Shown here: one piece after another, positions 4,743-59,757 of the stretch
Layout: every line of letters begins with the position of its first letter
Numbering within the stretch: position 1 is the stretch's first letter
Virus record (IMG/VR): IMGVR_UViG_3300013121_000035
Span: 40,203-104,202 of that record
Length of the DNA: 64,000 bases
Source of the DNA: a virus
Taxonomy: Duplodnaviria > Heunggongvirae > Uroviricota > Caudoviricetes
Reading direction: 5' to 3' (one strand)
Notes under the pieces: generated by a model
Databases searched by the model: none
What the model saw: the letters and a program-made list of their open reading frames with translations, nothing else
What the model was told of the DNA's origin: nothing
Made by a program: the position numbers and the translations under genes

Positions 4743-4767
4743 GGAGGCCCAGGTTGAGGAGGTCACG

Positions 4768-6548: not shown

Positions 6549-6583
6549 TCCAATCCTGGCCCGCGCAGGCCGATCTTGCAGGC

Positions 6584-8977: not shown

Positions 8978-8979
8978 CT

Positions 8980-9858
8980 GTGGCGACGACCGCGACCGGC
9001 CTGGTCTACAACCAGACCAATGACACCGAGTTCCGCGCTTGGGGCTCGGCGGTCAGCGCCGCGATCGCCACCGCCGGGTTCACCCAGACCGCTGACACCG
9101 GCCAGGTCGACTGGTCCACCGTTACCCGGCCATCCGCAGGGACCACTCCGCACTACGAGATCTGGGCGTTCGCCGACACCCTGCAGGCGACCCGGCCGGT
9201 CATGATGAAGGTGAGCTACGGGTCAGGCAGCAGCGCCACCCGCCCCTGGATGAGTGTCGAGCTCGCTCGCGCCACCGACGGTGCCGGTACGCTCACCGGC
9301 ACCACCACCGGGCCGCTGGTCTCCAGCTACGCCGACTTCAGCCCAGCCACCGACACCATCACCAGCTACATCGCCGGTGGCGGCAACTGGCTCACCATGT
9401 GCCTGTGGCCGGGCGGGTCCACCGGCGGCGGGACCGGATCAGCGCTGGTGCTCGTCATCGACCGCACCCGTGATGGGACCGGCGCCGCGACCGGCGACGG
9501 CGTCCTGCTCGCCGGCGGCCCGATGGTCACCAGCGGCTACTGCTCCCAGTACGTTCTGCCGCTGTGGTCCACCGGCGCGGCCATCGCGCTCAGCTACCCG
9601 CCGTGCTACGTCGGCAGCCCCACCACCGCCACCCAAGGGCTCGACGTGTCCTTCTTCCCCTGGACCCCGGTCACCCCCAAGCTGCACCCGCCGATCCTGG
9701 CCTGCTTCAGCTACTGGAACGCCGACATCTCTCGCAACACCGACGTCACGTTCACCGTCAGCGGCACCAGCCACACCTACAAGACGCTCGGCAACTGGGG
9801 GAACTGGGCATCAGCCAATCAGCAAAACGGTGCCAGCCTCGCGATCCGGTACGAGTAG
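8980..9858 (+). CDS. hypothetical tail/structural protein
   Basis: 292-aa ORF with a GTG start 2 nt after the previous stop. Gly/Thr/Ser-rich, with high GC3. Confidence 0.5.
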   Translation: MATTATGLVYNQTNDTEFRAWGSAVSAAIATAGFTQTADTGQVDWSTVTRPSAGTTPHYEIWAFADTLQATRPVMMKVSYGSGSSATRPWMSVELARATDGAGTLTGTTTGPLVSSYADFSPATDTITSYIAGGGNWLTMCLWPGGSTGGGTGSALVLVIDRTRDGTGAATGDGVLLAGGPMVTSGYCSQYVLPLWSTGAAIALSYPPCYVGSPTTATQGLDVSFFPWTPVTPKLHPPILACFSYWNADISRNTDVTFTVSGTSHTYKTLGNWGNWASANQQNGASLAIRYE

Positions 9859-9860
9859 CC

Positions 9861-10505
9861 ATGCCCTACGTCACCATCACCCGCGGTAGCTACACCGTCC
9901 GCAAGCACGCCTCGACCACCGCAACGCCCGTTGTGGTCGGCGGTGGCCCCGGCATACCCGTCGCGCTGGACAAAGGCCAGCTGTGGCCGCCGACGATCCG
10001 CCGGCCCGTCCACGGCGCCGGCCCCGACCTGCCTGACCCCGGCGACTACATCAACGGCGACCAGTACTTCAGGACGTCCGATAACAACCTATTTGTCCTG
10101 GTTGATGGCGAATGGGTCCAGCCGGGCATCCCCGAGCTGCCGCTCATGCTCGCCGTGGAAGGTACCCTGGCCGTCGAGAGCGGCGTCATCGCCGTCTACG
10201 CCCCCTACTCCGGGGTGCTCACCCGCGCGCACGCCGCCGTGTGGACCCCACCCGTCGGCGCCGACATCGTCCTGGACGTCAACCGCAACGGCACGTCGAT
10301 CTTCACCGACGCTGACGACCGCCTGGTCATCCCCGACGGGCTGTACACCACCGACTATGTCGTGCTCGCCGGCAACCCCGACATCACCACCGAGGTCACC
10401 GCCGGGGACTACTTCAGTGTCGACGTCGACCAGATCGGCTCGGGCACCGAAGGTGCGAACCTGACCGTCCAGCTGCTGTTCGCGTTCACCAGCGTGCCGA
10501 GCTAA
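9861..10505 (+). CDS. hypothetical tail protein carrying one copy of the fiber repeat motif
   Basis: ATG at 9861 (MPYVTITRG) within track ORF 9564..10505. Contains LPDPGDYINGDQYFRTSDNNLFVLVDGEWVQ, which matches the repeat unit of the 6584..8977 protein. Confidence 0.5.
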   Translation: MPYVTITRGSYTVRKHASTTATPVVVGGGPGIPVALDKGQLWPPTIRRPVHGAGPDLPDPGDYINGDQYFRTSDNNLFVLVDGEWVQPGIPELPLMLAVEGTLAVESGVIAVYAPYSGVLTRAHAAVWTPPVGADIVLDVNRNGTSIFTDADDRLVIPDGLYTTDYVVLAGNPDITTEVTAGDYFSVDVDQIGSGTEGANLTVQLLFAFTSVPS

Positions 10506-10516
10506 GCCGGTGTGCC

Positions 10517-10539
10517 CGCCGCCTTCGGCGGGGATCAGT
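10517..10539. terminator. GC-rich hairpin between convergent genes
   Basis: gcccgccg-cctt-cggcgggg forms an 8-bp perfect stem. It lies between the stop at 10505 (+) and the stop at 10549 (-). Confidence 0.5.
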
Positions 10540-10548
10540 TGGCCATGA

Positions 10549-10779
10549 TCAGGGCCGGACGGGGCACAGGTCGCTTGGCACCTTGTGCGCCGCCATCAGC
10601 TGGCAGATGCGCACCGCGTTGCGGTTGGCTTGCAGCTCAGCGATGTCGTGGCGCAACCGGGTCACCTGGTTGGCCAGCACGATCGTCTGGGCGACCAGCA
10701 CCATCGTGACGACCAGCAGCACCACCTGTGGCCAGGTGAAGCCGCGACGCTGGGTGTCAGACGAATCGGATGGGCTCAT
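10549..10779 (-). CDS. small single-TM membrane protein with C-terminal coiled coil
   Basis: Internal ATG (MSPSDSS...) gives 76 aa. TM segment VVLLVVTMVLVAQTIVLA is followed by an RLRHDIAELQANR region. The longer 114-aa track ORF has a low-complexity N-terminus. Confidence 0.4.
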   Translation of the reverse strand: MSPSDSSDTQRRGFTWPQVVLLVVTMVLVAQTIVLANQVTRLRHDIAELQANRNAVRICQLMAAHKVPSDLCPVRP

Positions 10780-10904
10780 GTCCCTTTGGTCGGGACTGGC
10801 CCTCGCGGAACTGAATCCGCAGCTGTCGTGGCTGTCGAGGCTCACATCACCAACTCGGCGTGTCGAATTGGACCTGCAGGGACCCACTCGCACAGGAGGC
10901 TCGT

Positions 10905-11288
10905 ATGACCGACGTCGCCGGCGTCCCCTCCGATCTCATCCGGCTGTCCGCCGTGCTTGGCACCGCCGTGCCGCTCGTTGCCGCCCTGGTCAAGCAGGAC
11001 CGGCTGTCCAAGCGCACCAACGCGGTCATCGCCATGCTCGTCAGCCTGGTCGTCGCGGGTGTCGCCGCGGCCGCTGAGGGCCACTTCACCTTCGGTGGCG
11101 GCTGGGACGATCTGATCGGCTCGTTCATCGCCATCTACACCGTCGCCGTCGCCACCTACAAGGGCTTCTGGCACCCCACCGGCATCGAGCCGGCGTTGCA
11201 GACCGCGACCAGCGCTGCGCCCAAGGCTGTCGACCCGACCGCCGCCGCTCGAACCACCGACGCTGACCGGACAATTTTCCCGCAATAA
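10905..11288 (+). CDS. putative holin-like membrane protein (3 predicted TM segments)
   Basis: ATG 10905 is preceded by AGGAGG (10893-10898). Three hydrophobic segments (AVLGTAVPLVAALV, AVIAMLVSLVVAGVAAAA, LIGSFIAIYTVAVATY) and a charged C-terminus. Lies at the end of the tail module. Confidence 0.45.
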   Translation: MTDVAGVPSDLIRLSAVLGTAVPLVAALVKQDRLSKRTNAVIAMLVSLVVAGVAAAAEGHFTFGGGWDDLIGSFIAIYTVAVATYKGFWHPTGIEPALQTATSAAPKAVDPTAAARTTDADRTIFPQ

Positions 11289-11295
11289 TCGCAGC

Positions 11296-11395
11296 GGAAA
11301 AAACCCTCGAAATATCCCAAGGGTTTTCCACTGCTGTGGACGGCAGGACCTGGCGCGGGGCGCAGGGAAGTCAACCGCTCCAGGCCAGGTCCTGC
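11296..11395. terminator. two hairpins after holin-like gene / before convergent minus-strand gene
   Basis: aaaaccct-N12-agggtttt forms an 8-bp stem. gcaggacctggc-N28-gccaggtcctgc forms a 12-bp stem. Both lie between the + gene stop (11288) and the - gene stop (11402). Confidence 0.45.
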
Positions 11396-11401
11396 GTCAC
11401 C

Positions 11402-11656
11402 TCATGACCGCGGCCACCACGCCGGCGGGGTCCCGCCCGACAGGTGCGCGTTGGCGCGGGCACTGCGCTTGGCCTCGATCGTGATCGTCAACGTCGCGGC
11501 GACGTCGTCCAGCTCGTAGGCGTTGACGGCCTGGCTGATCCAGTACCTGGACTGCGGGCGCATCTCATGCACCATGCGCGCCATCCGCATGGCCAGCTCG
11601 TCGTCTTCCAGGGGCTGCCGTGACAACGGCAGTTGCAGCTGGGGGTTGGTCGCCAT
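11402..11656 (-). CDS. hypothetical protein (84 aa)
   Basis: ORF from the six-frame track. Convergent with the holin-like gene. No recognisable motif. Confidence 0.35.
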   Translation of the reverse strand: MATNPQLQLPLSRQPLEDDELAMRMARMVHEMRPQSRYWISQAVNAYELDDVAATLTITIEAKRSARANAHLSGGTPPAWWPRS

Positions 11657-11889
11657 GCTCGCGCTCCTTCATGCCGTCCAGCAACAGCAAAGGGCCGGCC
11701 GCAAGGCGCGCCCAGTGTGCAGGAACGCCTCGAAGCCGGCCCTTGTCAGCCGCGCTGATGGTGCCTCGATGGCCGGCCCCGCCGGCCACCGGAATCTTGG
11801 ATGATTTCTATCCTGCGGGACGCCAGAGGATCACGTCAAACCCCCTGGACGAGACGGACAGATCGTCACGGCCGACCAGAGCGAGCCGG

Positions 11890-12216
11890 TCAGTCGATAG
11901 GGGTCCCGATCAGCCCGCCGGTGGTGAATGCCGCCTCCACCGGCCCGCGCCCCTCCGGGATCTGGATCACCAGCGTGCCGGTCGCGCCGGGCGCCAGCGC
12001 CGAGCGCGCCGCCCCCTTGGAGCGAGCACGCATCCGCTCGTAGACAGCGGCAAAGTCCGCAGCGGCCCGTGCCGAATCATCATCGGCCGGCTCAGCCCGC
12101 GGACCAGGTTCGATGCGGTCGCCAGACACGGCGCCACCCCCCTCAACCTGGATGAAAACGCGCCCGCTGGACGAGCGCACAAGAGTGCTGGGGGTTGTAC
12201 CACGCGCTGGGAACAA
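11890..12216 (-). CDS. hypothetical protein (about 108 aa, TTG start uncertain)
   Basis: Strong GC3 bias in the C-terminal two thirds (GGLIGTPID, GTLVIQIPEGRGPVEAAF). Lies in an otherwise intergenic-looking 800-bp region. Confidence 0.35.
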   Translation of the reverse strand: MFPARGTTPSTLVRSSSGRVFIQVEGGGAVSGDRIEPGPRAEPADDDSARAAADFAAVYERMRARSKGAARSALAPGATGTLVIQIPEGRGPVEAAFTTGGLIGTPID

Positions 12217-12264
12217 CGCGCAATACGTCAGAATCGGGCGAATCGGGACGTCCGATTTGGCCGC

Positions 12265-12295
12265 TTGACAGCCTGTCGGACCGGCGCGCTAGAGT
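12265..12295 (+). promoter_or_regulatory. sigma70/HrdB-like promoter TTGACA-N19-TAGAGT
   Basis: Exact TTGACA at 12265-12270 and TAGAGT at 12290-12295. Located about 165 nt upstream of the Cas4-like gene, at the start of the rightward early region. Confidence 0.45.
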
Positions 12296-12459
12296 CGCGT
12301 CCTCGGGGCACGCGGCACGGCCGGTGTCCCGGTCCAGGCGGCTCGGCCGCCCAACGGGCCGACCTCCATCCAGACTCGCCGCGGCGGGCTGGCCGGGGGC
12401 CGGCCCGTTGTCGTTTCCGGGGTGACGCCCGTTGCCATCGTCGACGTCGAGGGGGCTCG

Positions 12460-13374
12460 ATGCTCAGCGAACAACCCGTGCGCGCCATGCTGCCGCGCAA
12501 CAATCGCGGCGGCTACGTGTTCAGGCAGTCCACGATCGGCGCCTGGCAGCGGTGCGCGATGCAGGCCCACTACCTGGCCAGCGGCGCCCCCCGCGAGCAG
12601 CTGTCCGCCACCGCGTACGGGTCGGTCGTCCACCACGCGCTGCATGTCCTGGAACGCTACGGGGACCTCGACCAGGCGCTGGCTACGTTCGAGCACTACT
12701 GGCATCCGGACAACATCGGCGAGCTGTGCGACCCGGTCGACGTGTGGCTGCCCCGCCAGACGTACGGCGGGCTGCGCTCTCGCGGCCTGCGCGCTCTGCG
12801 CGACTACGCCGACCTCGCCCGCAGCGACGAAGCCGACATCCTCGCGTTGGAATACACCTTCACCGTCCCGATCACCGGGACCGACCATGACCTCACCGGC
12901 ACGGTCGACCGGCTCACCATCCGCAAGCAGCGCACCATCCCGTACCTTTCCCTCGACGACCATAAAACGGGCAAAAAGCCTGCCTATTTGCGTCATGCCG
13001 TCCAAGGCACCGCGTATTGCTACGCGACAACGCAGCGGGCGTTTTGGGACGGATTTGACGCGGCGCCCGTCCAGCTCCACAGGAGGGGCGAGCTGGACGG
13101 CGCCGCGTTATTCGAGCTCACCAAAACGTGGGCTCGCCGCTTCCGCTGGATCGACCTGATGCACATCGAGCATCACGACGGCGGCTGGCGCTCCGAACGC
13201 GACTACGCCCGGCTGCGGATGGCGGTCAACCAGATCGCCGCGTGCATCGACGCCGACATCTACCCCATGACGCTGTCGGGCGACACGTGCACCTACTGCG
13301 CGTTCCGCTCGATCTGCGGCGGGATCGGCATCGCCAGCGACGACGAAGGCGCCCCCACCAGGCGGCCAGCATGA
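12460..13374 (+). CDS. PD-(D/E)XK RecB/Cas4-family exonuclease
   Basis: ATG 12460 is preceded by GAGGGGG. Cas4-like DxK motif LSLDDHKTGKK, D in TVDRLT, and a C-terminal 4-Cys cluster (C-x16-C-x2-C-x5-C: CIDAD...CTYCAFRSIC). Confidence 0.65.
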   Translation: MLSEQPVRAMLPRNNRGGYVFRQSTIGAWQRCAMQAHYLASGAPREQLSATAYGSVVHHALHVLERYGDLDQALATFEHYWHPDNIGELCDPVDVWLPRQTYGGLRSRGLRALRDYADLARSDEADILALEYTFTVPITGTDHDLTGTVDRLTIRKQRTIPYLSLDDHKTGKKPAYLRHAVQGTAYCYATTQRAFWDGFDAAPVQLHRRGELDGAALFELTKTWARRFRWIDLMHIEHHDGGWRSERDYARLRMAVNQIAACIDADIYPMTLSGDTCTYCAFRSICGGIGIASDDEGAPTRRPA

Positions 13375-49090: not shown

Positions 49091-50131
49091 TTAGCCCTCC
49101 ACCAGCATCGCAACCTGCTGCAGCTGCACGCGCACCAGGTCGATCGCGTCGCCGGCGTCTTCCAGCGCGGCGTCCAGGGTCTCGGTGTACTCCTGCGCCC
49201 GGTTGAGCACCAAGTCGTAGCGGGCCTTGAGCTTGGCGGCCCGCTCGGCGGTGATCGGGTTGTTGGCCTTGGTCACCGTCGCCAGCTCCGCTGACAGCTC
49301 CTGCAGCTGTTCACGGGTCTCCGACCGGAAGTCCTCGATCACCATCTCCCGCAGCCGCGGCAGGTCCAGGCACGGCACCAGTCGCATCGTGGAGGTCCCG
49401 CCGTAGCGTTCGACCAGCGTTGCCAGCCGCGCCAGCGTCTCGTGACGGGTCTTGGGCACGAAGTAGGTCCCGCCGGACTGGATCAGCCGTACCGCGTTCA
49501 GGTGTGGCCCGAGCAGGTACTCCCGCACGATCGAGCGCAGCTTGTCCGCGGCGTAGAAGTCGCACAGCTCGGAGTGGCGGCGCATCGTGCGGGCCATCAG
49601 GTCCTCCACGATGCCTTCCTCGAACGGGGCCAGCTGCTGGTCGCCGGTCGCCGGGTCGTGCACGAAGATCTGCTGCTTGATCCTGGTCGACGTCCGATCG
49701 GCCGCCTTGCCCCGCCCCGCCCGGTACAGCACCAGCTCACCGATCTTGGCCGAGTAGTGCAGCCGCTCCTTCTTGCCGTCGGTGATCTGGCGGACCAGGT
49801 GGTAGACCAGCCGCTCGGGGCTGGTCGCCACCTTGACGGCCGTCACCGTCGCGGTCAGCTCGCCTTTGCGGCCCACGTCGTAGGCGTGCTTGACCTCCGC
49901 GCAGGCACGCTCGAACGCGCCGAAGATCTTGATCGGCGGCGGCATGTACATCGCCGAGTCCAAGCCGAGCTCATCGAACCAGGACTGCAGCTTCTCGCGG
50001 GACACCTGGTGCGGCTCGGCGACACGGAACATCACCACCGAACCCAGCAGTGCCTCACTGCCAACTTGGGCGATGTCGTGTAGGTAGCGGTCCAGGTCGG
50101 CCGCGTGGGTTGCGTCTGTTGCCACGGTCAT
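49091..50131 (-). CDS. hypothetical protein (346 aa), no recognisable motif
   Basis: ATG with strong AAGGAGGG RBS. High GC3 throughout. Confidence 0.5.
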   Translation of the reverse strand: MTVATDATHAADLDRYLHDIAQVGSEALLGSVVMFRVAEPHQVSREKLQSWFDELGLDSAMYMPPPIKIFGAFERACAEVKHAYDVGRKGELTATVTAVKVATSPERLVYHLVRQITDGKKERLHYSAKIGELVLYRAGRGKAADRTSTRIKQQIFVHDPATGDQQLAPFEEGIVEDLMARTMRRHSELCDFYAADKLRSIVREYLLGPHLNAVRLIQSGGTYFVPKTRHETLARLATLVERYGGTSTMRLVPCLDLPRLREMVIEDFRSETREQLQELSAELATVTKANNPITAERAAKLKARYDLVLNRAQEYTETLDAALEDAGDAIDLVRVQLQQVAMLVEG

Positions 50132-50191
50132 ACGTGCTCCCTCCTTCGGGCGCGTCGGGACGCCCCCCGCCCCGACGTGGGTCGGAGGGGT

Positions 50192-50563
50192 CTACGGGGG
50201 GGTCAGGTCAGGGCGAAGATCACGCAGGTGCTTCACCCCGTCGATCACGGCGGCTTCCACATAGCGCAGCCGCCGCAGCGAGGAACTGGCCATCATCCGC
50301 TGGCCGGCGCGAATGCCACGCCAACGGGCATGGTCGGTCGGCCGCGGACGCATCGTCTCCGGCGGCAGGCCGCGCGCGACCCAGGAACGCTGACGTTCCC
50401 GCTCGGCGACCCGCAACGCCTTGCCGGGGGGGATCACGTCCATCCCAGCTTCGAGGACCTCCTCCAGCGGGTGCCAGTCACCATCGGCAAGCACCCGCAG
50501 CATCGCCAGCGATGCCGGGCTGAGCGTCACACGCGGGTGCGCCTTGTTCGGGTTACTTGCCAC
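50192..50563 (-). CDS. hypothetical protein, possible winged-helix DNA-binding (123 aa)
   Basis: Track ORF. LAMLRVLADGDWHPLEEVLEAG. Confidence 0.4.
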   Translation of the reverse strand: MASNPNKAHPRVTLSPASLAMLRVLADGDWHPLEEVLEAGMDVIPPGKALRVAERERQRSWVARGLPPETMRPRPTDHARWRGIRAGQRMMASSSLRRLRYVEAAVIDGVKHLRDLRPDLTPP

Positions 50564-51539
50564 GCAGCTTCTCCGCCAGCAGGCTCAGGCGACTGGCGGC
50601 GTCCTCCAGGTCGCGGATCATCTGCGGCCGCTCAGCGCTTGGCACCGACTCGACCACCGCAGCCTCGTCGAGCTTGCGGATGCCGCCGACGTACATGCGG
50701 ACCACATTGCGGGGGCTGCCGGTCAGGTCCATGACCCGCCCTTGGCGGCGGGTGGCGAGGTTGGCTTCCAACTGGTCCAGGTAGGCCCAGGTGTCTTCCT
50801 CGCTGCTCATCTTGTTGATGTCGGTCACCATCGTGAAGACCTCGGGGGACTTCATCCGCGTGTCGACCGCGAGCTGCGCGGCCCGCTCGAACCAGCGGTC
50901 CATCTTGATCTGGTTCAGCCGTGCCTGGGAGGAGTTGGCCAGGGACACAAACCCGCGGACCTTCAGCTTCTGCGCGCGGCGGATCGCGGCCTCCTTGTTG
51001 ACCGCGCCCTGCACCTTGCCCTTGGGCAACGCCAGCTGCCGGGCCGCCTCGTCAGGGCTCACCCCGGCGTTGCGGACCAGCCAGATCGCGTGGCTGACCC
51101 GCACCCGCTCCTCGGGGATCAGCCCGTTGTGGCCGTTGGCGGTCAACGTCATCGCCTGCAGCTTGATCGGGTCGGTGCCCGGCTCGACGACGTAGTGCGG
51201 GAACGACTCGAAGTCGTTGGACAACGCCGCCGCGATCCGGTTGTTCCCGTCGATCAGGATCAGCCCACCGACCGGATCGGGGTAGGAGACGACCGCGGGG
51301 AACTCCGTACCGTGCTCCATCAGCTCGGTGTAGGACTCCACCAGGTCGGGCACCAGCGCCTCGTCACGGGCCTGGTTCTGGCGGCTCTTGGCCAGGTTGA
51401 CCTTCTCCAGGGGGACTTCGGGGTCGTAGTACCACTCGACGTCCCAGTCCTCCAGCCACTGTTCGATGTCGGCGCGGCGGGCCGCGTCATCCAGCGGCGC
51501 GAGGTCGCTGGGGCCAAGCTGCTTGCGGGTGGATGCCAT
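50553..51539 (-). CDS. ParB/Sulfiredoxin-like N-terminal nuclease-domain protein (328 aa)
   Basis: LILIDGNNRIAAA matches the ParB GxxR box. About 200 aa of C-terminal helical extension. Confidence 0.55.
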   Translation of the reverse strand: MASTRKQLGPSDLAPLDDAARRADIEQWLEDWDVEWYYDPEVPLEKVNLAKSRQNQARDEALVPDLVESYTELMEHGTEFPAVVSYPDPVGGLILIDGNNRIAAALSNDFESFPHYVVEPGTDPIKLQAMTLTANGHNGLIPEERVRVSHAIWLVRNAGVSPDEAARQLALPKGKVQGAVNKEAAIRRAQKLKVRGFVSLANSSQARLNQIKMDRWFERAAQLAVDTRMKSPEVFTMVTDINKMSSEEDTWAYLDQLEANLATRRQGRVMDLTGSPRNVVRMYVGGIRKLDEAAVVESVPSAERPQMIRDLEDAASRLSLLAEKLRGK

Positions 51540-51559
51540 CGGCGGGAACCTCCGGATCG

Positions 51560-53188
51560 TCAGATCGTGCGGAACAGGTCGCCGGTGGTCGATTCCACAT
51601 CAATCAGGTCGACCACCGTGCGGGTGTTGTCGCTCACGGCGGCGATCTCGGGGGTGACATCGGTTGCGACCGCCACGCCGAAGCAGCGGAACCCGCTGCG
51701 GTCTTTGCGCTCATGCCAGCGGCGCAGAAACGTCGGGGAGATCGGCGCTTCACCGTCGGTGACGAACACGATGTCGCCATGCTGGCGCCCGGTGCCGCTG
51801 AACTCCCGCTCCAGGAGTCCACTGGCGACGTCCAGCGGTGCCTCAAAGTCGGTCCCCCCACCCCAGAAGTGCTCAGCGAGCGCAATTCGGTCGCTGATGG
51901 TAGACGCACCAGCACGAAACAGGAAAGTCTGGATTTGGTTGCGCGAGCTGAACAGGACACACGCGAAATCCCGCTTGGCCGTGCGCGCCTGGTCCAGCAG
52001 CGCAAGCGACAACGCCTTGCCCCACGCCTCCCGGCTCGGCTCGCGCATCTGCCAGCTGATCCCGCCGCCCATCGACCCCGAGCAGTCCAGCACGACCACG
52101 ATCGCGCCCTTGCCGATGCGTTCCTCGCCGCGTAGCTGGCCTTGCAGCAGGCTGCTCTCGGCGAACCGGCGCAGGAACTCGATCTCCAGGTCGTCGTCAG
52201 CCAGCAGCAGCAGCTCGCTGGGCAGCACCAGCCCCAGGTCGTTGCCGGTCACGATGTCGTGCAGCTCATCCACCCCGTGGACGACCTTGCGGGCACGCTC
52301 CGCCTGCGCCAAGGTCCGCATCCGCCCGATCAGCTCGCTGAACTTGCGCAGCTTGTCGCTCTGCAGCTGCTTGGCGAGCTGCTGACGCTGGCGGAAGTCC
52401 AGCTTCTGCAGCTCCCCGTCGCCGATGCCCCACGAGCGCATCGCCTCGGCCTGCTCGTCCAGGTCCTTGGTCGCCTGCTCCGCCGCCTCCCGTAAGCTCT
52501 TGGCGGTCTTGGCCTTCAACGCGTCGTTGGCGTCGTCCAGCAGCTCCCCGGCAGCCTGCGCTGTCGCAGCTGCCTGCTGCGCATCCGCCATCGCCTGCGC
52601 CAACTGCTGCGCGGCGTCCTCGGGCAGCGACCCGTCCTCGCCGGCTTGCTGCTGCGCCTGGTCGAGTTGCTCAGCCAGCGCCTGGGCTTGGGCGGCCGCC
52701 TCGGCCTGGGCACGCTCAACCTCCTCCGCGCGCTCCTCGGCCTCAGCAGCCTGGGTGAGCGCGTCCTCGATCGCCGGGCGCATCCCCAGCAGGCCCATCA
52801 CCGCGCCGTACTCGTCATGGATCGAATGCTGGCGTAGCGCCTCGATCTCACTGGTCTCCGACAGGTTGCCGACCACCGTGTGGTTGGTCCGCCACCGCGG
52901 GTGCATCTGGTCACGGTCGCGCCGTTCGGGGTAGTTCTTGTACAGCAGGTGGTACAGGTCGCGCAGCAGATCGCCGGTGTGGCCGTGATGTTCCCCCAAT
53001 TCCTCGGCCACATCGCTCAGTGCAGGCACCTCACCCAACAGTTCCTCGAACATCTGCGCGTCGAAGCGGTCGTGGCGGATCGCGTCGGTCGCTGTCGGGT
53101 AGACCTCCGCAACCGATGCCAGGAACGACTCAACCTCGCTGACCAGCTGCGCTCCATCAGGAGTTTGGTCCTCACTCACTGCGCACAC
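51560..53188 (-). CDS. von Willebrand factor A (vWA) domain protein with MIDAS motif and long coiled-coil N-terminal region (542 aa)
   Basis: C-terminal VVVLDCSGSMGG (DxSxS) and FVTDGE. Central AEAEERAEEVERAQAEAAAQ... coiled coil. Confidence 0.65.
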   Translation of the reverse strand: MCAVSEDQTPDGAQLVSEVESFLASVAEVYPTATDAIRHDRFDAQMFEELLGEVPALSDVAEELGEHHGHTGDLLRDLYHLLYKNYPERRDRDQMHPRWRTNHTVVGNLSETSEIEALRQHSIHDEYGAVMGLLGMRPAIEDALTQAAEAEERAEEVERAQAEAAAQAQALAEQLDQAQQQAGEDGSLPEDAAQQLAQAMADAQQAAATAQAAGELLDDANDALKAKTAKSLREAAEQATKDLDEQAEAMRSWGIGDGELQKLDFRQRQQLAKQLQSDKLRKFSELIGRMRTLAQAERARKVVHGVDELHDIVTGNDLGLVLPSELLLLADDDLEIEFLRRFAESSLLQGQLRGEERIGKGAIVVVLDCSGSMGGGISWQMREPSREAWGKALSLALLDQARTAKRDFACVLFSSRNQIQTFLFRAGASTISDRIALAEHFWGGGTDFEAPLDVASGLLEREFSGTGRQHGDIVFVTDGEAPISPTFLRRWHERKDRSGFRCFGVAVATDVTPEIAAVSDNTRTVVDLIDVESTTGDLFRTI

Positions 53189-53195
53189 CTCCCTC

Positions 53196-54398
53196 CTACT
53201 TGTCCTGCCAGATCTCGTCGGCGCTGTTCGCCGGCCGCATCCCCAGGCACTGGGTCCACACCTGGTTGGCGACCTCCAGGTGGCGGGCGATGATCTCGTC
53301 CAGCTTGGTCGTGGACCGGCCGGACTTGACCGCGTCGGCGCGTAGCTTCTTGAGCTTCTTGTGCATCGTGCGCATCTTGGCGTTGGCGTCGAACCCGAAC
53401 TTGTTCAGCTCGTCGCGCGCCTCACCGCCCAGATCCCGCAGCCGGGAGGCGAGCTCGTTGACGCTCTCCAGGATGATCACCGCGTCCTTCAGCTGCGGGC
53501 TGGCCAGCGTCAGTACCATCCGCTCCACCGGCTGGACCTGCTCGATCGTCTCCCACAGCGCGTAACGCAGGATGATCAGGTCTTCGTCGATGCACTGGGA
53601 ACGGCCGTTCAGGTAGGCGTGGGCTTGCACCAGCCGCACGCACTGTTTGAACCTGCGATCGGAGGGATGCATCCCCGCGCCGCGCATCTGGGTCCACAGC
53701 TTGGCCATCGCCTCGAAGATCGCGTCGGACACCGGCAACGCGGGCACCTCGACCCGCACCGCCTGCTCCAGCTCTGCCAGCGACACCGTCGTCGGGATGC
53801 TCGCCGGCGCGACCGCCGAGCGCAGCAGCTTGTCGAAGTTGCCTGGCTCCTCGATGTAGTTGACCGGGAACCGGACCAGGAAGCGGTCGAAGATCGCCGC
53901 GGTCTCCTCCGAGTCGGGCAGCTCGTTGGACGCACCCAGCACGCTCAGCGTCGGCGTGGCCACCGGCTGGGGGTTGTGGAAGATGTGCTCGTTGGCGATC
54001 GCCAGCAGGGCGTTCAGCACCGCCGAGCGGCCCTTCCAGATCTCGTCGATGTAGGCGATGTGCGCCTCGGGCAGCATCCCGTCGGTCACCCGCACGTAGC
54101 GGCCACGCTTGAACTCGTCGATGTCCAGCCCGCCGACGACCTCCTCCACCTGGGTGGTCGGCCACAGCAGCTTCTCGAAGTAGTGCGCGTCGGTGACTCG
54201 CTCGCAGAACGCGCGGATCAGCTGGGACTTCGCGGTCCCCGGCGGGCCGAGCAGGAACCCGTTGGCGTTGGCCAGCACGGTCACCGCCAACGCCTCGATC
54301 GCGCCGCGGCGCTCCAGGAACTCCTCGGTGAGCTCGGTGACGATCGCCTTCAGCTTGGCCTGCGTCGTCGCGGTTGGGGTCACGGTCACGGTGGTCAT
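53196..54398 (-). CDS. MoxR-type AAA+ ATPase (400 aa)
   Basis: Walker A GPPGTAKS and Walker B IAYIDEIWK. Sensor region ALLAIANE. Immediately upstream of the vWA partner gene. Confidence 0.65.
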   Translation of the reverse strand: MTTVTVTPTATTQAKLKAIVTELTEEFLERRGAIEALAVTVLANANGFLLGPPGTAKSQLIRAFCERVTDAHYFEKLLWPTTQVEEVVGGLDIDEFKRGRYVRVTDGMLPEAHIAYIDEIWKGRSAVLNALLAIANEHIFHNPQPVATPTLSVLGASNELPDSEETAAIFDRFLVRFPVNYIEEPGNFDKLLRSAVAPASIPTTVSLAELEQAVRVEVPALPVSDAIFEAMAKLWTQMRGAGMHPSDRRFKQCVRLVQAHAYLNGRSQCIDEDLIILRYALWETIEQVQPVERMVLTLASPQLKDAVIILESVNELASRLRDLGGEARDELNKFGFDANAKMRTMHKKLKKLRADAVKSGRSTTKLDEIIARHLEVANQVWTQCLGMRPANSADEIWQDK

Positions 54399-54877: not shown

Positions 54878-55101
54878 CAGCTCACCTTCGCCTCACGCTC
54901 GCGGACCTTGCCCAGCAGCACCTCCAGGTCCTTGATGATCCCGCCGAGCGTCTTGGCCTCACGGGCGAATCCGGCCGCGGTCAGCGCCTTGTGGGCCTTG
55001 TCCAGCGACGGGAACGCCGTGTTGATCGCTGTCTTGGCCCTGGACGCCTGCCGTGCCGGGCTCAACCTGGCCTCACTGGTCGCCATGCTTCCTCCCTTCA
55101 C
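54877..55101 (-). CDS. hypothetical small protein (74 aa)
   Basis: Track ORF between the ligase gene and the 54395..54877 gene. Confidence 0.35.
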   Translation of the reverse strand: MKGGSMATSEARLSPARQASRAKTAINTAFPSLDKAHKALTAAGFAREAKTLGGIIKDLEVLLGKVREREAKVS

Positions 55102-56021
55102 GTCACCGGCAGCTCATCCAGCTGCGAACTCACACACGCCGCCGGCTCCACGTCGCTGCGGACCCCCTTGAACGCGGGGTTGCGCAGCTTGCCGTCACGG
55201 CTGACCGACAGCGCCTCCACCTCCACTACCAGCGGCACCCCGGCGTCGAGCGTCTGCTTGCAGACCGCCAGGTCCGCCTCGGTCAACCCCGAGCCGACCT
55301 TGCCGACCAGCAGCAGCGACGCATCTGGGGCGACCAGGACCAGCTTCAGCGCGCCGACCTTCCCGGCCCTGGCACCCTGGCCGGGCTCGTAGCCGATCGC
55401 GATCGCGGTCAGCCGGCTGGTGGTCTTGAACTTGCACCACGCCGGGCTGCGCCGACCCACATACCGTGAGCCGCGCCGCTTGGCGACCACACCCTCCAGC
55501 CCCAGCGCCCGCACCTGCGCCCACAACGCCACGCCGTCCTCGCACACCACGGAGCGGCGCACCGGGCCGTCCGCCGGCCACGCGGCCGCCAGCTCGTCCA
55601 GGCGTCCCAGGCGCACCTCCAGCGGCTGGCCGCGCAGATCCCGGCCGCCCTCGGCGAGCAGGTCGAACGCGATCAGCGTCGCGGGGAACTGGCGAGCTGC
55701 CAGCCGGATGGAGAAGTCGCCCTGCTGCGCGTCACGGCGGTGGATCGCGGCGAAGTCCGGCCGGCCGCCACGCAGCACAACCAGCTCGCCGTCAACGACA
55801 ACGTCCGTCAACAGCGCAGCCAGCGCGCTGGTCAGATCTGGGTAGCGCGCGCTGATGTCAGCGCCGCGCCGATTGCGCAGCCGCACATGCCCCCCCTCGG
55901 CGACCACGATCGCGCGGACGCCGTCCCACTTGGTATCCCACAGCCACTGACCGCTCGCCTGGAACGCCGCGATCTGCTCGGGCTGTCCGGGACTGGCCAG
56001 CATCGGCTGGAAGCCGCTCAC
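55098..56021 (-). CDS. ATP-dependent DNA ligase (adenylation + OB domains)
   Basis: GTG start overlaps the RuvB-like stop (GTGA). Motif I KWDGVRAIV, then FDLL, EGVVAK, WCKFK. Confidence 0.7.
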   Translation of the reverse strand: MSGFQPMLASPGQPEQIAAFQASGQWLWDTKWDGVRAIVVAEGGHVRLRNRRGADISARYPDLTSALAALLTDVVVDGELVVLRGGRPDFAAIHRRDAQQGDFSIRLAARQFPATLIAFDLLAEGGRDLRGQPLEVRLGRLDELAAAWPADGPVRRSVVCEDGVALWAQVRALGLEGVVAKRRGSRYVGRRSPAWCKFKTTSRLTAIAIGYEPGQGARAGKVGALKLVLVAPDASLLLVGKVGSGLTEADLAVCKQTLDAGVPLVVEVEALSVSRDGKLRNPAFKGVRSDVEPAACVSSQLDELPVT

Positions 56022-57130
56022 GATAGCGCCTTGCCGTGACGGGCGTCCGCCAGCTGCTGGATACGCGCCTGGCCGAGCTGGGTCAGCGAGCGGCCGTTGG
56101 CGGTGCGCGTGATGAACCGGCGGTCCACCAGCAGCTGCTCGACGTAGGCCAGCCCACCCGGCTCGCGCATCTGGTTGGCGATCGCCTTCTCCCCAGCGGT
56201 CCCACCGAGATCGCGCAGCGTGAGCAGGTAGTGCGCGGCCTGGTCGGTCAGCCCGTCGGGGTACAGCCCCGCGCGGCGCAGCGGCACGTCCAGATCGAAC
56301 GTGGTCCCGTCCCAGTTGTCCCCGTCGCGGGCGACGTAGATGTCGCGCACCGCGATCAGCACCGGGATCATCAGCCGCGGCACCCGGTTGGCTGCCGTGG
56401 AGATCGTGTAGTAGAAGTCCGGGTCGGTGGGCAGCGGCACCCCGTCAGTGCCGAACCCGACCCGTGCGGCCAGCTGCACGCAGATCGACAGGGCCTCAAC
56501 TTCGTCGTAGGGGTGCAGCGCTGGGCGGATCAGGAAACGGTCAAGGATCGTCTCCGGCAATCGGCCCGCGTCGGTCGTCGCGCCGATCACCGTGACGTCG
56601 GGCACGTCGTCCAGCGTCACCCCGCCAGCGCCGAACAGCGCGCCGTCCTGCAGGTAGTTCAGCAGCCATTCGGCCTTGCCCTTGCCGCCGTGCACCAACC
56701 GATGGACCTCGTCGATGAACAGAATGTCGTGGTCGTCCAGGCTCACCAGCGCCGCGTAGGCGTCCTTGACCGTGAGCGTCCCCGACAGCATCAGGAACTG
56801 CTGGCCCCACTCCTTGCCGACCAGCATCGCCAGGCTCGTCTTGCCGATCCCCGGGATGCCCGAGGCCAGCAGGATGTGGTCCAGGCGCGCGTCGCGCCGT
56901 CGTGCTGAGGTGATCGCGTCGCGCAGGTGCGCCTTGGCGTCCTCCTGGCCGACGTACTCACTCCAGCTACGCGGGTAGTGGGTGCTGGTGAAGATCGCGT
57001 CGCCGCTGGCCGGGGCGAACTGGCTGGCCAGCGCCGTCGCCTTGCCCTCCTCGCGGATCGCCTTGCGCCGGCGTTGGATGAAGTCCATCGCCACCTGGCC
57101 GGCGAACATGTTGACCGCGCTGCCACGCAT
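56018..57130 (-). CDS. RuvB-like AAA+ ATPase
   Basis: Collinear RuvB pattern: YPRSWSEYVGQ, LDHILLASGIPGIGKTSLA, ILFIDEVHRL, VTVIGATTDAGRLPETILDRF. No ruvA-like gene is adjacent. Confidence 0.6.
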   Translation of the reverse strand: MRGSAVNMFAGQVAMDFIQRRRKAIREEGKATALASQFAPASGDAIFTSTHYPRSWSEYVGQEDAKAHLRDAITSARRRDARLDHILLASGIPGIGKTSLAMLVGKEWGQQFLMLSGTLTVKDAYAALVSLDDHDILFIDEVHRLVHGGKGKAEWLLNYLQDGALFGAGGVTLDDVPDVTVIGATTDAGRLPETILDRFLIRPALHPYDEVEALSICVQLAARVGFGTDGVPLPTDPDFYYTISTAANRVPRLMIPVLIAVRDIYVARDGDNWDGTTFDLDVPLRRAGLYPDGLTDQAAHYLLTLRDLGGTAGEKAIANQMREPGGLAYVEQLLVDRRFITRTANGRSLTQLGQARIQQLADARHGKALS

Positions 57131-57132
57131 GG

Positions 57133-58020
57133 TCAGCTCGCCTTCCGCCGCCGCCTGACCGGCGCCGGCGCGGCCTCGACCGGCTCGGCAGGCGTGGGCT
57201 TGGGCTTGGGCTTGCGGGTCCGCTTGGGCTTGGGCGTGTTGGCCGCCACCGCTGCCCGCAGCGTCGCCATCAGGTCGCCACCAGTCGGCAGCTCAACCAC
57301 TGCCGCCTGCGCCGTGGCCGCCTGCGGGTCCTTGGCCGCCACGATCTCGGCCAGCTTGTCGGCCTTGACGTCGCGGTAGGCAGCCGGGTCGAACGGGCGG
57401 GTCAGGCTCGCCAGGAGCTGCTCGGCCAGCGGCAGCGCACCCTCGGCGAAGCTGGTCGGCACCATCGGCATCGCCTTGATGTCGGCCGGCCAGGCCAGCT
57501 GCTCCAGCACCAGCACGTCGCCGAAGGTCCGCAGCGCGAACATGGTGACGGCCGTTCGCAGCGCCAGCCGGCAGCACAGCGTCAGCTCCGGGTGGGTCTT
57601 GAGTGCCGCTGCGATCAGCGCGTACGCCTCAGCGGTGGAGGCGTCGCTGGTCAGGTAGTAGACCTTGCCGCCCGGCAGCGTCTTGGCCTTGACCTGCTCG
57701 CTCGGATGGGGGAACAGCTCGACCCGCTCGCCCTTGAACGCCTCGACCTCGGCGTCGATCGCGGCCAGCTCCTGGTCAGTGAGCAGGACGTAGGCGTCCT
57801 TGCCCTTGGGCCGGCCCTTGGTGAACGTCGCCTTGTCGGCATTGCCGCACGTCGGGCACGTGCTGGACTGCTTGGGCTTGTCGGGTGGGTGGGGCTTGTC
57901 CGCCGAGCCGACGCACAGCGTCGTGTGCGAGCTCGGGCTGGTGATGGCGCTCTCCACGTCGACCCTGGCCGAGACCAGCGGGCCGAACGCGAGCGTCACC
58001 CCCGAGGTGACCGTTGCCAT
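57133..58020 (-). CDS. ku: Ku (NHEJ DNA end-binding protein) with Lys/Pro-rich C-terminal tail
   Basis: ATG (MATVTSG...) is preceded by AAGGAGG. Ku-core pattern: VTLAFGPLVSARV, CPTCG...DAYVLLTDQELAAID, VELFPHPSEQV, KVYYLTSD, EAYALIAAAL, LAWPADIK. C-terminus carries KPKRTRKPKPKPT. Confidence 0.7.
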   Translation of the reverse strand: MATVTSGVTLAFGPLVSARVDVESAITSPSSHTTLCVGSADKPHPPDKPKQSSTCPTCGNADKATFTKGRPKGKDAYVLLTDQELAAIDAEVEAFKGERVELFPHPSEQVKAKTLPGGKVYYLTSDASTAEAYALIAAALKTHPELTLCCRLALRTAVTMFALRTFGDVLVLEQLAWPADIKAMPMVPTSFAEGALPLAEQLLASLTRPFDPAAYRDVKADKLAEIVAAKDPQAATAQAAVVELPTGGDLMATLRAAVAANTPKPKRTRKPKPKPTPAEPVEAAPAPVRRRRKAS

Positions 58021-58137
58021 GTGAGCCTCCTTGGTTCGAGGCGGCACCCCAACCCGGTGGCAACCGGGGGAGATGCGTTGTCGTCCTGCCAGTATACTAC
58101 AGAATTAGCTAAGTCTCACCTGCTCTGACCAGGTGTT

Positions 58138-58431: not shown

Positions 58432-58482
58432 GTTGGCTGCTCCTTGCTGCCCTGACGGGCGTTGTCGTGGCTGTCCTGCTGC

Positions 58483-58902
58483 TCAGCGGTCCAGGACCTC
58501 CTCGGGAACTCGCCAGCCGGCCAGCTCCCTGCTGATGCCGCTTGGCAACAGATGTGACCGGCGGGTGCGCTGGGCCAACCCCAGCCGTTGCAGCACCTCA
58601 GCCGCCTCGTCGACGGCACGACGCGTCAACCCGGTGCGGCGCATGACCTCGTCGGTCAGCGTCTGGCTGTACCCGTCGGAACTCCACAGCGCCTCGTCCG
58701 CGGCGTGCGCCAGCGCCAACAGCACCAGCTTCACGGTGGCGTTGCGACGCACCGGCAGGTGCGCCCAGGCCCACGCGGTCACCTGCCGGGTGTTCTCCCG
58801 CGCCGGACGGTTGCGGTCCCCGCCGCAACGATCGCAGGTGGTCTCGTAGTACGCCTCCGAGAGCTGCTTGTATGGCATGTGGCAGTCAGCTTGTTGTGTC
58901 AT
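58483..58902 (-). CDS. HTH/winged-helix DNA-binding protein (139 aa)
   Basis: N-terminal CDRCGG Cys pair, then VKLVLLALAHAAD...TLTDEVMRRTGLTRRAVDEAAEVLQRLGL, which is HTH-like. Confidence 0.45.
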   Translation of the reverse strand: MTQQADCHMPYKQLSEAYYETTCDRCGGDRNRPARENTRQVTAWAWAHLPVRRNATVKLVLLALAHAADEALWSSDGYSQTLTDEVMRRTGLTRRAVDEAAEVLQRLGLAQRTRRSHLLPSGISRELAGWRVPEEVLDR

Positions 58903-58923
58903 CAGGTCCTCCTTGGCCGGGCG

Positions 58924-59721
58924 TCATGCGGCCCAGTCCTCGATGTCGTCCACCTGCTCCACGCCGGCCGCGGCGACGACGTCAGCCATCGACAGGTCCA
59001 TGCGGAAGCGGTGGCCCATGCGCGCCTCGGCTGCGGCGTACTCCGTGGCTAGGTCCGGGCGCAGCTGTGCGGCCAGCACGAGCTGACTGCGGCTGGCGAA
59101 CACGCAGAACGAACAGCTCAGCCGTGGCATCCCCTGGTCGTACACCGGGTGATAGGGCACCCCGGACGCCCGGATGCGCTGCCACACCTGCGCGGTGGAC
59201 CAGGCGTGGATCGGCAGCCACTCCCATACGTGCCGGCGGGTCTTGTTGCTCGCCCGCTCGTCGAAGGCGAACGCCGGCCGCTTGGCCCTGGCCGGCGACT
59301 CCGCCGCTCGCAGGCCCATGCAGTTCAGGATCTTCACCGGCCGGTCCAGGTCCAGCTCCCGCACCAGCTGGGTCATCAGCTTGTAGACCTGGTTGCGCTT
59401 GAACTCCGACGTGCAGTAGCGGTTCTTGGCGTCCGGCCACCGGCCGCGCAGCTCGATGCGTTCCAGCAAGTCGATGTCAGGGTGCTCGACGATCTCGAAC
59501 CGCAACCCGTAGTGCGCCGCCTGCCTGCCTGCCAGCTCGGGCACCCCGTCCCACTCCACCCGGCCCAGGTCAGCGTGGACAACCACGATCCGGCTGCGTG
59601 GCACACCCTAGGCGTCGGCCAGCTCGGCCACGACGTCCAGCTGCGCCTGAGAGTCCTTGCCCCCGGAGGAGTTGACCAGCAACACGTCGTAGTCGTTGAG
59701 GTTCACGGTGGCTCCTTGCAT
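58924..59721 (-). pseudogene. PAPS-reductase-like (phosphoadenosine phosphosulfate reductase family) gene interrupted by in-frame TAG at 59608-59610
   Basis: N-terminal segment (ATG about 59721) carries VLLVNSSGGKDSQ. After TAG the same frame continues through GTG 59604: GVPRSRIVVVHADLG...CTSEFKRNQ...SCSFCVF. The two segments together read as a single gene. Confidence 0.5.
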
Positions 59722-59757
59722 GGCAAAGGCCCCGGCGTTGCCGGGGCCTTTGCGAAG
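59722..59757 (-). terminator. perfect 12-bp hairpin abutting the PAPS-reductase-like start codon
   Basis: aaaggccccggc-gttg-gccggggccttt. Lies between the 59765..60001 gene stop and ATG 59721. Confidence 0.45.

What the first reader, a model, noticed from the sequence alone, without database searches (positions are those of the whole stretch)
58924..59721. Conserved PAPS-reductase-like gene split by an in-frame amber (TAG) codon
On the minus strand the segment ...VNLNDYDVLLVNSSGGKDSQAQLDVVAELADA is followed by TAG (59608-59610). It then continues in the same frame as GVPRSRIVVVHADLGRVEW...CTSEFKRNQ...SCSFCVF. Together the two parts match the PP-loop N-terminus and the C-terminus of a single PAPS-reductase-family protein.

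Possible explanations are a recent nonsense mutation (pseudogene), a sequencing error, programmed readthrough or amber suppression, or a two-piece protein restarted at GTG 59604. TAG is rare in a genome of this GC content, which makes a tolerated in-frame TAG notable.
Basis: seen in the sequence. Interest (0 to 1): 0.55.

Follow-up and report, generated by a model that had tools for sequence, protein, structure and literature searches.

The report
PAPS-reductase-like phage gene broken by one nonsense codon
A phage accessory gene of the well-known PAPS-reductase/PP-loop family is interrupted by a single premature TAG stop that sits where relatives usually have glutamine (CAG); it looks like an ordinary one-base nonsense change or assembly error, not a special decoding mechanism.

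Summary
On the minus strand, a GTG start at 59706 with a strong ribosome-binding site opens 32 codons that contain the PP-loop SGGKDS. A TAG follows at 59610-59608. The same frame then continues for 227 sense codons to TGA at 58926-58924. Both parts align to one PAPS_reduct (PF01507) protein.

All close homologs are single proteins of about 260-280 aa, and 79 of 80 IMG/VR loci are uninterrupted. The TAG column is most often Gln (36/80; CAG in 24), so one C-to-T transition explains the codon.

Nothing supports programmed decoding:
- TAG terminates 15 of 106 predicted genes in the window.
- No other gene carries an in-frame TAG.
- No tRNA was found.
- The RNA downstream of the TAG is not unusually structured.
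- No homolog is split at this site.

The lesion is young or artefactual, because both pieces keep all 52 invariant residues and normal codon usage. The truncation removes strand β1, the PP-loop and helix α1, so the downstream fragment alone should be inactive.

Strain variants of this phage exist (99.56% identity), so a strain-specific SNP is plausible. No independent assembly covers the site, so a real mutation cannot be separated from a sequencing error. This is an ordinary finding of low interest.

The parts
58924..59706 (-). Whole PAPS-reductase-like (PF01507, PP-loop) gene as it would read if the TAG were a sense codon: 260 codons plus the TGA stop.
   Evidence: One frame; homologs of 260-280 aa align end to end.
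59712..59717 (-). Shine-Dalgarno AAGGAG, 5 nt upstream of the GTG start.
   Evidence: Read directly.
59611..59706 (-). N-terminal fragment of 32 codons: strand β1, PP-loop SGGKDS and helix α1.
   Evidence: It retains invariant L3, D7, S14, G16, K17, D18, S19 and Q20. Secondary structure is mapped from the AF2 model of homolog P0007.
59608..59610 (-). In-frame TAG (premature stop) at residue 33, the last residue of helix α1. Homologs have Gln most often at this column.
   Evidence: Q in 36/80 loci (CAG 24, CAA 12), A 23, L 10, E 7. Q in 14/27.
58924..59604 (-). Downstream ORF of 226 aa from GTG 59604, including the TGA stop. It lacks the PP-loop and contains the conserved Cys residues (RYCTS, SCSFC).
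58924..59586 (-). The 220-aa gene call made by the source's annotation (P0001, JGI/IMG), starting at GTG 59586.
   Evidence: P0001 is 100% identical, a singleton cluster, on a contig of 104,202 bp.
59724..59752 (-). Perfect 13-bp GC-rich hairpin with loop AAC, lying between the upstream gene's TAG stop (59767-59765) and the SD. It is terminator-like but has no T tract.
   Evidence: Read. The consensus terminator scan, which requires a T run, did not report it.

Best explanation
This is a single-nucleotide nonsense lesion, most simply CAG (Gln) to TAG by one C-to-T transition. It lies in an otherwise intact accessory gene for a PAPS-reductase-like PP-loop enzyme, carried by a temperate, high-GC, actinophage-like metagenomic genome.

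The lesion is either a very recent strain-specific mutation or a base-calling/assembly error in the contig. It is not a programmed decoding event.

Shown:
- The ribosome-binding site and start are intact.
- The frame is open and conserved on both sides of the TAG.
- Homologs are continuous at this position.

Inferred, if the TAG is real:
- Ribosomes start at GTG 59706 and terminate after 32 codons, releasing a peptide that carries β1, the PP-loop and α1.
- Any product from reinitiation at GTG 59604 or 59586 lacks the ATP-binding PP-loop and the first core strand, so it should be inactive.
- Only basal near-cognate readthrough of UAG would give traces of full-length protein. In bacteria this typically inserts Gln, which is the ancestral residue here.
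- The gene is therefore a nascent pseudogene or a strongly hypomorphic allele of a dispensable, moron-type gene.
For: - Continuity of homologs: 27 close database homologs and 79 of 80 IMG/VR loci read through this position without interruption.
- Residue at the TAG column: Gln in 36/80 loci (CAG 24) and in 14/27 of the closest proteins, so one transition suffices.
- No other decay: all 52 invariant alignment columns are kept, eight of them in the 32-aa fragment. There are no frameshifts. N- and C-terminal identity to homologs is equal. The codon-model score is 0.77 per codon upstream and 0.45 downstream, against a genome mean of 0.51.
- TAG as a terminator: it ends 15 of 106 predicted genes. 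Thirteen of these have no coding signal in frame beyond the TAG. The other two are ordinary junctions, each with its own ATG start; the one read at sequence level (2170-2172) also has an SD.
- No tRNA in the 64-kb window or in 5.8 kb of extra flank from a near-identical contig.
- RNA downstream of the TAG folds no better than shuffled sequence, z = +0.41.
- Sporadic nonsense lesions occur elsewhere in the family. L047 has TGA at the invariant Trp of VDEWLPI.
- Strain variants exist at 99.56% identity, 53 mismatches in 12.6 kb. That predicts about 3 differences per 783-bp gene between strains.
- The AF2 model of a 65%-identical homolog (pLDDT 93.7) puts the stop at the end of helix α1, so β1 and the PP-loop are cut off.
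Against: - No reads and no independent assembly of the site are available. A real mutation and an error therefore cannot be separated, and the ancestral codon is inferred, not observed.
- The complete absence of secondary decay is also what a tolerated or functional stop would show.
- About 34 kb of the 104-kb source contig could not be inspected for a suppressor tRNA.
- A GTG lies 3 nt after the TAG, so some reinitiation is mechanistically possible.
Confidence: 0.85

Rival explanations
1. Programmed or regulatory readthrough: the UAG is decoded at a useful rate, by near-cognate tRNA-Gln or by a host or phage suppressor. This would give low, tuned levels of full-length enzyme.
For: - The TAG sits at a Gln-preferred column. 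Gln is what near-cognate decoding or supE-type suppression would insert (own knowledge).
- Both halves are perfectly preserved.
Against: - The stop is not conserved in any of about 200 homologs examined.
- No tRNA was found.
- No downstream structure beyond the shuffle expectation.
- TAG is an ordinary terminator of 15 other genes, which a suppressor would also read through.
Confidence: 0.05
2. Two-piece enzyme: termination at TAG is followed by reinitiation at GTG 59604, 3 nt downstream. The 32-aa PP-loop peptide and the 226-aa body then associate non-covalently.
For: - A start codon lies immediately after the stop.
- The break falls at the end of helix α1, before a surface loop, in the model of a homolog. 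Split proteins sometimes tolerate a break in such a place (own knowledge).
Against: - No homolog is organised as two ORFs at this position.
- No SD lies at a usable distance before GTG 59604 or 59586. The only purine run, AGGG, ends 1 nt before the GTG.
- The 32-aa piece contributes the first strand of the central sheet and the whole ATP-binding loop. A stable complex formed without co-folding is therefore unlikely (inference).
Confidence: 0.05
3. Genome-wide or late-gene TAG-to-Gln recoding, as in some gut phages, with a suppressor tRNA in the unseen part of the contig.
For: TAG-to-Gln is the commonest recoding reported in phages (bioRxiv 10.1101/2021.08.26.457843, listed; own knowledge). The TAG here is at a Gln column.
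Against: - Only 1 of 106 genes has an in-frame TAG.
- 15 genes end in TAG, and none of the 15 junctions looks read through (13 have no coding signal in frame beyond the stop; 2 are followed by a separate gene with its own ATG).
- Coding density under the standard code is already 85% with crude calls.
- No tRNA was found in 64 kb plus 5.8 kb.
Confidence: 0.02

Closest known systems
Phage 'PAPS reductase-like domain' proteins (PHROG 424; e.g. Streptomyces phage Gilgamesh gp116; Pseudomonas phages Dolphis and Jeremy)
   Same: Same Pfam domain (PF01507) and the same length of about 260 aa. It shares the PP-loop SGGKDS and the conserved RYCTS and SCxFC cysteines. It matches phrog_424 at E 1.2e-32 and is 45.7% identical to Gilgamesh gp116 over residues 3-244.
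   Different: The copy in the window carries a premature TAG at codon 33, while the listed phage homologs are uninterrupted. The biochemical role of this phage subfamily is not established.
Assimilatory APS/PAPS reductases (CysH; PDB 2goy, 6vpu, 1sur)
   Same: Same fold. The AF2 model of homolog P0007 matches these structures best (Foldseek E 3e-8 to 7e-7, TM about 0.5-0.6).
   Different: Only 14-22% identity. NCBIfam CysH/APS-reductase models score 28-38 bits against cut-offs of 154-254. The C-terminal ECG(L/I)H catalytic motif of CysH is absent from the sequence.
DNA-phosphorothioation PAPS-reductase-type enzymes: DndC, SspD and BrxP of type 4 BREX
   Same: Local profile matches to the PAPS-reductase domain: BrxP 1.1e-16, DndC 6e-6, SspD 1.6e-5. 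These are Cys-rich PP-loop enzymes that act on DNA (PMC12839542).
   Different: - The match covers only positions 133-336 of the 779-position BrxP profile.
- DndC TIGR03183 scores 23.9 bits against a cut-off of 290.
- No Dnd, Ssp or BREX partner genes lie nearby.
Stop-codon-recoded phages (TAG to Gln)
   Same: An in-frame TAG at a position where relatives have Gln.
   Different: This is a single instance. TAG is used normally as a terminator, there is no suppressor tRNA, and coding density is normal.

Membership tests
PAPS_reduct (PF01507) / PP-loop ATP pyrophosphatase superfamily | Profile score above Pfam's gathering threshold. | tested here: met
   67.6 bits against a cut-off of 22.5 for the joined translation; 55.7 bits for the downstream ORF alone.
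PAPS_reduct (PF01507) / PP-loop ATP pyrophosphatase superfamily | PP-loop motif SGGxDS after the first β-strand. | tested here: met
   SGGKDS at residues 14-19, upstream of the TAG. These columns are invariant in alignment A1.
PAPS_reduct (PF01507) / PP-loop ATP pyrophosphatase superfamily | Adenine-nucleotide α-hydrolase fold resembling APS/PAPS reductases. | tested here: met
   Tested on the 65%-identical homolog P0007, not on the window protein itself. pLDDT is 93.7, and the top Foldseek hits are 2goy, 6vpu, 2oq2 and 1sur.
PAPS_reduct (PF01507) / PP-loop ATP pyrophosphatase superfamily | One uninterrupted reading frame encoding the whole domain. | tested here: not met
   TAG at 59610-59608 after codon 32.
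Bona fide CysH / assimilatory APS-PAPS reductase | Score above the NCBIfam equivalog/subfamily cut-offs, and the C-terminal ECG(L/I)H motif. | tested here: not met
   TIGR02055 scores 37.9 against 235.3; NF002537 36.6 against 154; TIGR00434 29.7 against 165.1; TIGR02057 28.6 against 254.2. There is no ECG motif in the 260-aa translation.
DndC (DNA phosphorothioation) | TIGR03183 equivalog score, and a dnd gene neighbourhood. | tested here: not met
   23.9 bits against a cut-off of 290.4. Neighbouring genes show no Dnd proteins.
BrxP (type 4 BREX) | Full-length BrxP architecture (about 780 aa, with extra domains) and BREX neighbours. | tested here: not met
   Local hit only, to profile positions 133-336 of 779. 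The protein is 260 aa, and none of the neighbouring proteins scanned matched a BREX (Brx/PglZ) family; eight of them were scanned only against PHROGs.
TAG-recoded phage genome | Many genes with in-frame TAG, and TAG avoided as a terminator. | tested here: not met
   One in-frame TAG among 106 predicted genes, while 15 genes end in TAG.
TAG-recoded phage genome | Suppressor tRNA with anticodon CUA. | tested here: not met
   ARAGORN found no tRNA in the window or in L081. About 34 kb of the source contig was not available.
Programmed stop-codon readthrough | Stop conserved at the same position in relatives, and a stimulatory 3' context or structure. | tested here: not met
   0 of 79 intact IMG/VR loci and 0 of 27 aligned proteins have a stop there. 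The fold z-score is +0.41.
Naturally split (two-ORF) gene | Relatives organised as two adjacent ORFs broken at the same place, and a ribosome-binding site for the second ORF. | tested here: not met
   All relatives are single ORFs. No SD lies at a usable spacing before GTG 59604 or 59586.

The most novel reading that the evidence does not exclude
The TAG is real and tolerated. Either a host or phage glutamine-inserting amber suppressor, or unusually leaky UAG decoding, gives tuned low-level expression of a potentially toxic DNA- or nucleotide-modifying PP-loop enzyme. Alternatively, the enzyme works as a non-covalent two-piece protein after termination-reinitiation at the TAG-GGT-GTG junction. 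Either reading would be an unreported expression mode for a high-GC actinophage gene.
Probability: 0.06. Interest if true: 0.6.

Novelty: already known. Interest (0 to 1): 0.1.

Why it matters
It matters little biologically. It is an example of a freshly broken, or mis-assembled, accessory gene in a metagenomic phage genome.

Its practical value is for annotation. The source's 220-aa gene call (P0001) is a truncated product and should be flagged as a pseudogene or possible sequence error, not treated as a shorter family variant.

If, against the evidence, the stop proved to be conserved and read through, it would be a first case of amber suppression or a split PP-loop enzyme in an actinophage.

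Tried and rejected
1. Recovering the source contig, or a variant with a sense codon. Exact-pattern scans used the TAG codon wild-carded and then a second pattern inside the gene. Both patterns were scanned in IMG/VR and JGI metagenomes, and the wild-carded one also in GTDB genomes. All returned nothing.

2. Finding other assemblies of the same phage by exact look-up of neighbouring proteins.
- This found Logan SRR12022143_13086 (99.56% identical to window 1-12595) and ENA ERZ27258552 k141_1452761 (identical to window 58466-59059).
- Neither covers the TAG.
- Six other look-ups found nothing.

3. A second protein search with only the N-terminal 119 residues, to catch near-identical fragments. 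There was no hit above 71% identity.

4. A screen for other in-frame TAGs with coding signal on both sides.
- Three candidates (35302, 41526 and 8197) lie antisense to the predicted genes and were dismissed as antisense-frame artefacts of a high-GC genome.
- TAG 2170-2172 is a normal junction followed by ATG with an SD.
- The TAG at 61121 is followed by a 45-nt spacer and a separate ATG gene.

5. Conserved gene neighbourhood as a clue to function.
- None of the window's neighbours recurs next to homologs.
- The commonest neighbours elsewhere are DpdA, a C5-methyltransferase-like protein and a second PP-loop-like protein. Each occurs in only 6-7 of 80 loci, and none is in the window.

6. A profile search of PDB sequences found nothing, so the fold comparison was used instead.

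7. Frameshifting as a bypass was rejected. Homology resumes in the same frame at the very next codon (GVPRSR, matching homologs).

Full report
**1. Observation**

Reading the minus strand gives the following layout:
- The upstream gene ends with TAG at 59767-59765.
- A perfect 13-bp hairpin spans 59752-59724.
- An SD AAGGAG lies at 59717-59712, followed by a 5-nt spacer and GTG at 59706.
- Thirty-two codons follow: VNLNDYDVLLVNSSGGKDSQAQLDVVAELADA.
- TAG lies at 59610-59608.
- The frame continues GGT GTG(59604) CCA CGC ... for 227 sense codons (226 aa counted from GTG 59604) to TGA at 58926-58924.

The ORF list shows the 226-aa ORF 58924..59604. It also shows the upstream open frame ending at 59608.

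The joined translation hits Pfam PAPS_reduct (PF01507) across the TAG: residues 10-201, profile positions 3-172 of 175, 67.6 bits. The downstream ORF alone matches only profile positions 64-172.

**2. What the element is**

The window is 65-70% GC and has about 106 predicted genes. Recognisable genes include:
- the C-terminal part of a 2096-aa protein with a PhageMin_Tail (PF10145) match, seen whole in a near-identical contig (likely tape measure);
- a Sak4-like protein, a primase/helicase, an endolysin and a serine integrase;
- Ku, a RuvB-like AAA+ protein, an ATP-dependent DNA ligase, and a MoxR + VWA pair.

This is a temperate, actinophage-like genome. It has no close relative among 50,697 GenBank phages: megablast found nothing, and the primase/helicase is at most 26% identical to any of them.

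The source's own gene call for the broken gene is P0001, 220 aa, starting at GTG 59586. It comes from a JGI/IMG contig of 104,202 bp and is a singleton cluster.

**3. Homologs are single proteins and the TAG sits on a Gln column**

The database search returned 3846 relatives.
- The best non-self hits are 58-66% identical and 259-299 aa long. They cover 90-100% of the joined query.
- In the 28-sequence alignment A1, the TAG column is Q in 14, A in 8, E in 3, and V and F in 1 each.

Of 80 IMG/VR loci encoding relatives, all give one uninterrupted tblastn segment across this position.
- The residue at the TAG column is Q in 36 (CAG 24, CAA 12), A in 23, L in 10 and E in 7.
- Only one locus, L047, has any in-frame stop. 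It lies elsewhere: TGA replaces the invariant Trp of VDEWLPI.

A single C-to-T transition from CAG therefore accounts for the TAG. Independent nonsense lesions occur sporadically in this family.

**4. State of the two pieces**

The window's sequence keeps all 52 invariant columns of A1. These include L3, D7, S14, G16, K17, D18, S19 and Q20 in the 32-aa piece.
- Identity to homologs is 50-75% upstream of the TAG and 54-68% downstream.
- Codon-model scores are typical of genes on both sides: 0.77 and 0.45 per codon, against a mean of 0.51.
- There are no frameshifts.

The lesion is therefore very recent, artefactual or tolerated. Sequence alone cannot tell these apart.

**5. Tests for programmed decoding**

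a. *Recoding.*
- TAG terminates 15 of 106 predicted genes (TGA 80, TAA 11).
- For 13 of these, the in-frame continuation has a codon-model score of zero or below.
- The other two are ordinary junctions. TAG 2170-2172 is followed at once by ATG, preceded by GGGGGGA. The TAG at 61121 is followed by a 45-nt spacer and an ATG gene.
- Same-frame neighbours occur just as often after TGA.
- The three other TAG candidates from a composition screen lie antisense to the predicted genes.
- Coding density is 85% under the standard code, even with crude calls.

b. *Suppressor.* ARAGORN found no tRNA in the window or in L081, which adds 5.8 kb beyond the window's start.

c. *Readthrough signal.* The 121 nt around and after the TAG fold at -55.5 kcal/mol, against -57.0 ± 3.7 for shuffles, z = +0.41.

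d. *Split gene.* No relative is split here. The only purine run before GTG 59604 (AGGG) ends 1 nt from the start codon, and nothing better precedes GTG 59586.

e. *Frameshift bypass.* This is excluded, because homology resumes in the same frame at the next codon.

**6. Consequence for the protein**

An AlphaFold2 model of P0007 (65% identical; same numbering up to the TAG) has pLDDT 93.7.
- Its elements are β1 at residues 8-13, the PP-loop, α1 at 17-33 and β2 at 39-45.
- The stop is thus the last residue of α1.
- The model's best PDB matches are APS/PAPS reductases 2goy, 6vpu, 2oq2 and 1sur.

A product restarted after the TAG would lack the first strand of the central sheet and the ATP-binding loop. 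It should be inactive; this is an inference from the known role of the PP-loop in this superfamily.

Basal near-cognate decoding of UAG usually inserts Gln in bacteria (own knowledge). It would give at most traces of a wild-type-like protein.

**7. Family placement**

The protein belongs to the PF01507 superfamily and to the phage group phrog_424. It is not a CysH, APS reductase or DndC equivalog, since all NCBIfam scores fall far below their cut-offs. Its best defence-library match is local, to the PAPS-reductase domain of BrxP.

BrxP and DndC are PAPS-reductase-type enzymes of DNA phosphorothioation systems (PMC12839542).

Synteny gives little help:
- None of the window's neighbours recurs beside homologs.
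- Elsewhere DpdA (PF23859), a C5-methyltransferase-like protein and a second PP-loop-like protein each flank the gene in only 6-7 of 80 loci.
- None of these is in the window.

A role in DNA or nucleotide modification is plausible but untested. The gene behaves as a mobile, dispensable cassette.

**8. Real mutation or error?**

Near-identical strains of this phage have been assembled elsewhere.
- Logan SRR12022143_13086 is 99.56% identical to window 1-12595, with 53 mismatches and 2 gaps.
- ENA ERZ27258552 k141_1452761 is identical to window 59059-58466. It covers the last 44 codons of this gene but not the TAG.
- At that divergence, about three differences per 783-bp gene are expected between strains, so a strain-specific nonsense SNP is unremarkable.

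No other assembly or gene call covers the TAG. The contig is absent from the three DNA collections. The choice between a true allele and a consensus error therefore needs the reads.

**9. Verdict**

The finding is correct as an observation but ordinary in meaning. It is a one-base premature stop in a well-known phage accessory gene family. Every available test for recoding, readthrough or natural splitting came out negative. Confidence in the mundane explanation is 0.85 and interest is 0.1.

Noticed in passing
window 55098-58047 (minus strand): Three adjacent genes: Ku (57133-58047, PF02735 E 1.6e-9), a RuvB-like AAA+ protein (56018-57130) and an ATP-dependent DNA ligase (55098-56021). Together they look like a phage-borne end-joining/repair module. 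To my knowledge, the Ku-encoding mycobacteriophages described so far rely on a host ligase.
   Followed up: no
window 49091-54398 (minus strand): A MoxR-type AAA+ protein (53196-54398; bpMoxR PF20030, E 1.9e-48) next to a VWA-domain protein (51560-53179). A DUF6744 protein lies at 49091-50131. Their function in a phage is unclear.
   Followed up: no
L047 4001-4741 (IMGVR_UViG_3300033148_006102): A homolog of the same gene carries an in-frame TGA in place of the invariant Trp (VDD*FPI against VDEWLPI). This contig is 48.7% GC, and long open frames in it also end in TGA. It is an independent nonsense lesion in the family.
   Followed up: partly
L081 5786-18380 and L082 1-594: Strain variants of this phage exist in other public assemblies. 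Logan SRR12022143_13086 is 99.56% identical to window 1-12595. ENA ERZ27258552 k141_1452761 is 100% identical to window 59059-58466, then stops aligning 17 nt after the 139-aa gene. That suggests a mosaic junction or a chimeric contig end.
   Followed up: partly
IMG/VR loci L001-L080, within 2.5 kb of the homolog: DpdA (PF23859, E 2.7e-77; 7-deazapurine-in-DNA system) flanks the PAPS-reductase-like gene in about 7 of 80 loci. A C5-cytosine-methyltransferase-like protein and a second PP-loop-like protein each flank it in about 6. This hints at a link to DNA modification. None of these genes is present in the window.
   Followed up: partly
protein P0002 (424 aa, Logan): This looks like the N-terminal ~120 residues of one family copy fused in frame to a complete second copy. 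It may be a tandem duplication or an assembly artefact.
   Followed up: no
proteins P0137, P0147, P0155, P0164, P0165, P0190 and P0211: Many homologs of 108-203 aa that cover only the N-terminal half lie on long actinobacterial contigs (Amycolatopsis, Actinophytocola, Nocardia; up to 3.7 Mb). They may be truncated or decayed prophage copies, or a genuinely shorter subfamily.
   Followed up: no
window 59724-59752 (minus strand): A perfect 13-bp GC-rich hairpin (CAAAGGCCCCGGC-AAC-GCCGGGGCCTTTG) without a T tract lies between the upstream 78-aa gene and the SD of the PAPS-reductase-like gene. It may be a terminator or an RNA-stability element. The consensus terminator scan missed it because that scan requires a T run.
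   Followed up: no
window 58483-58902 (minus strand): The 139-aa protein immediately downstream has a Cys-containing N-terminus and a weak match to a replication-initiation PHROG (phrog_6643, E 6.6e-5). An identical protein is on the ENA contig. It does not co-occur with homologs of the PAPS-reductase-like gene elsewhere.
   Followed up: partly
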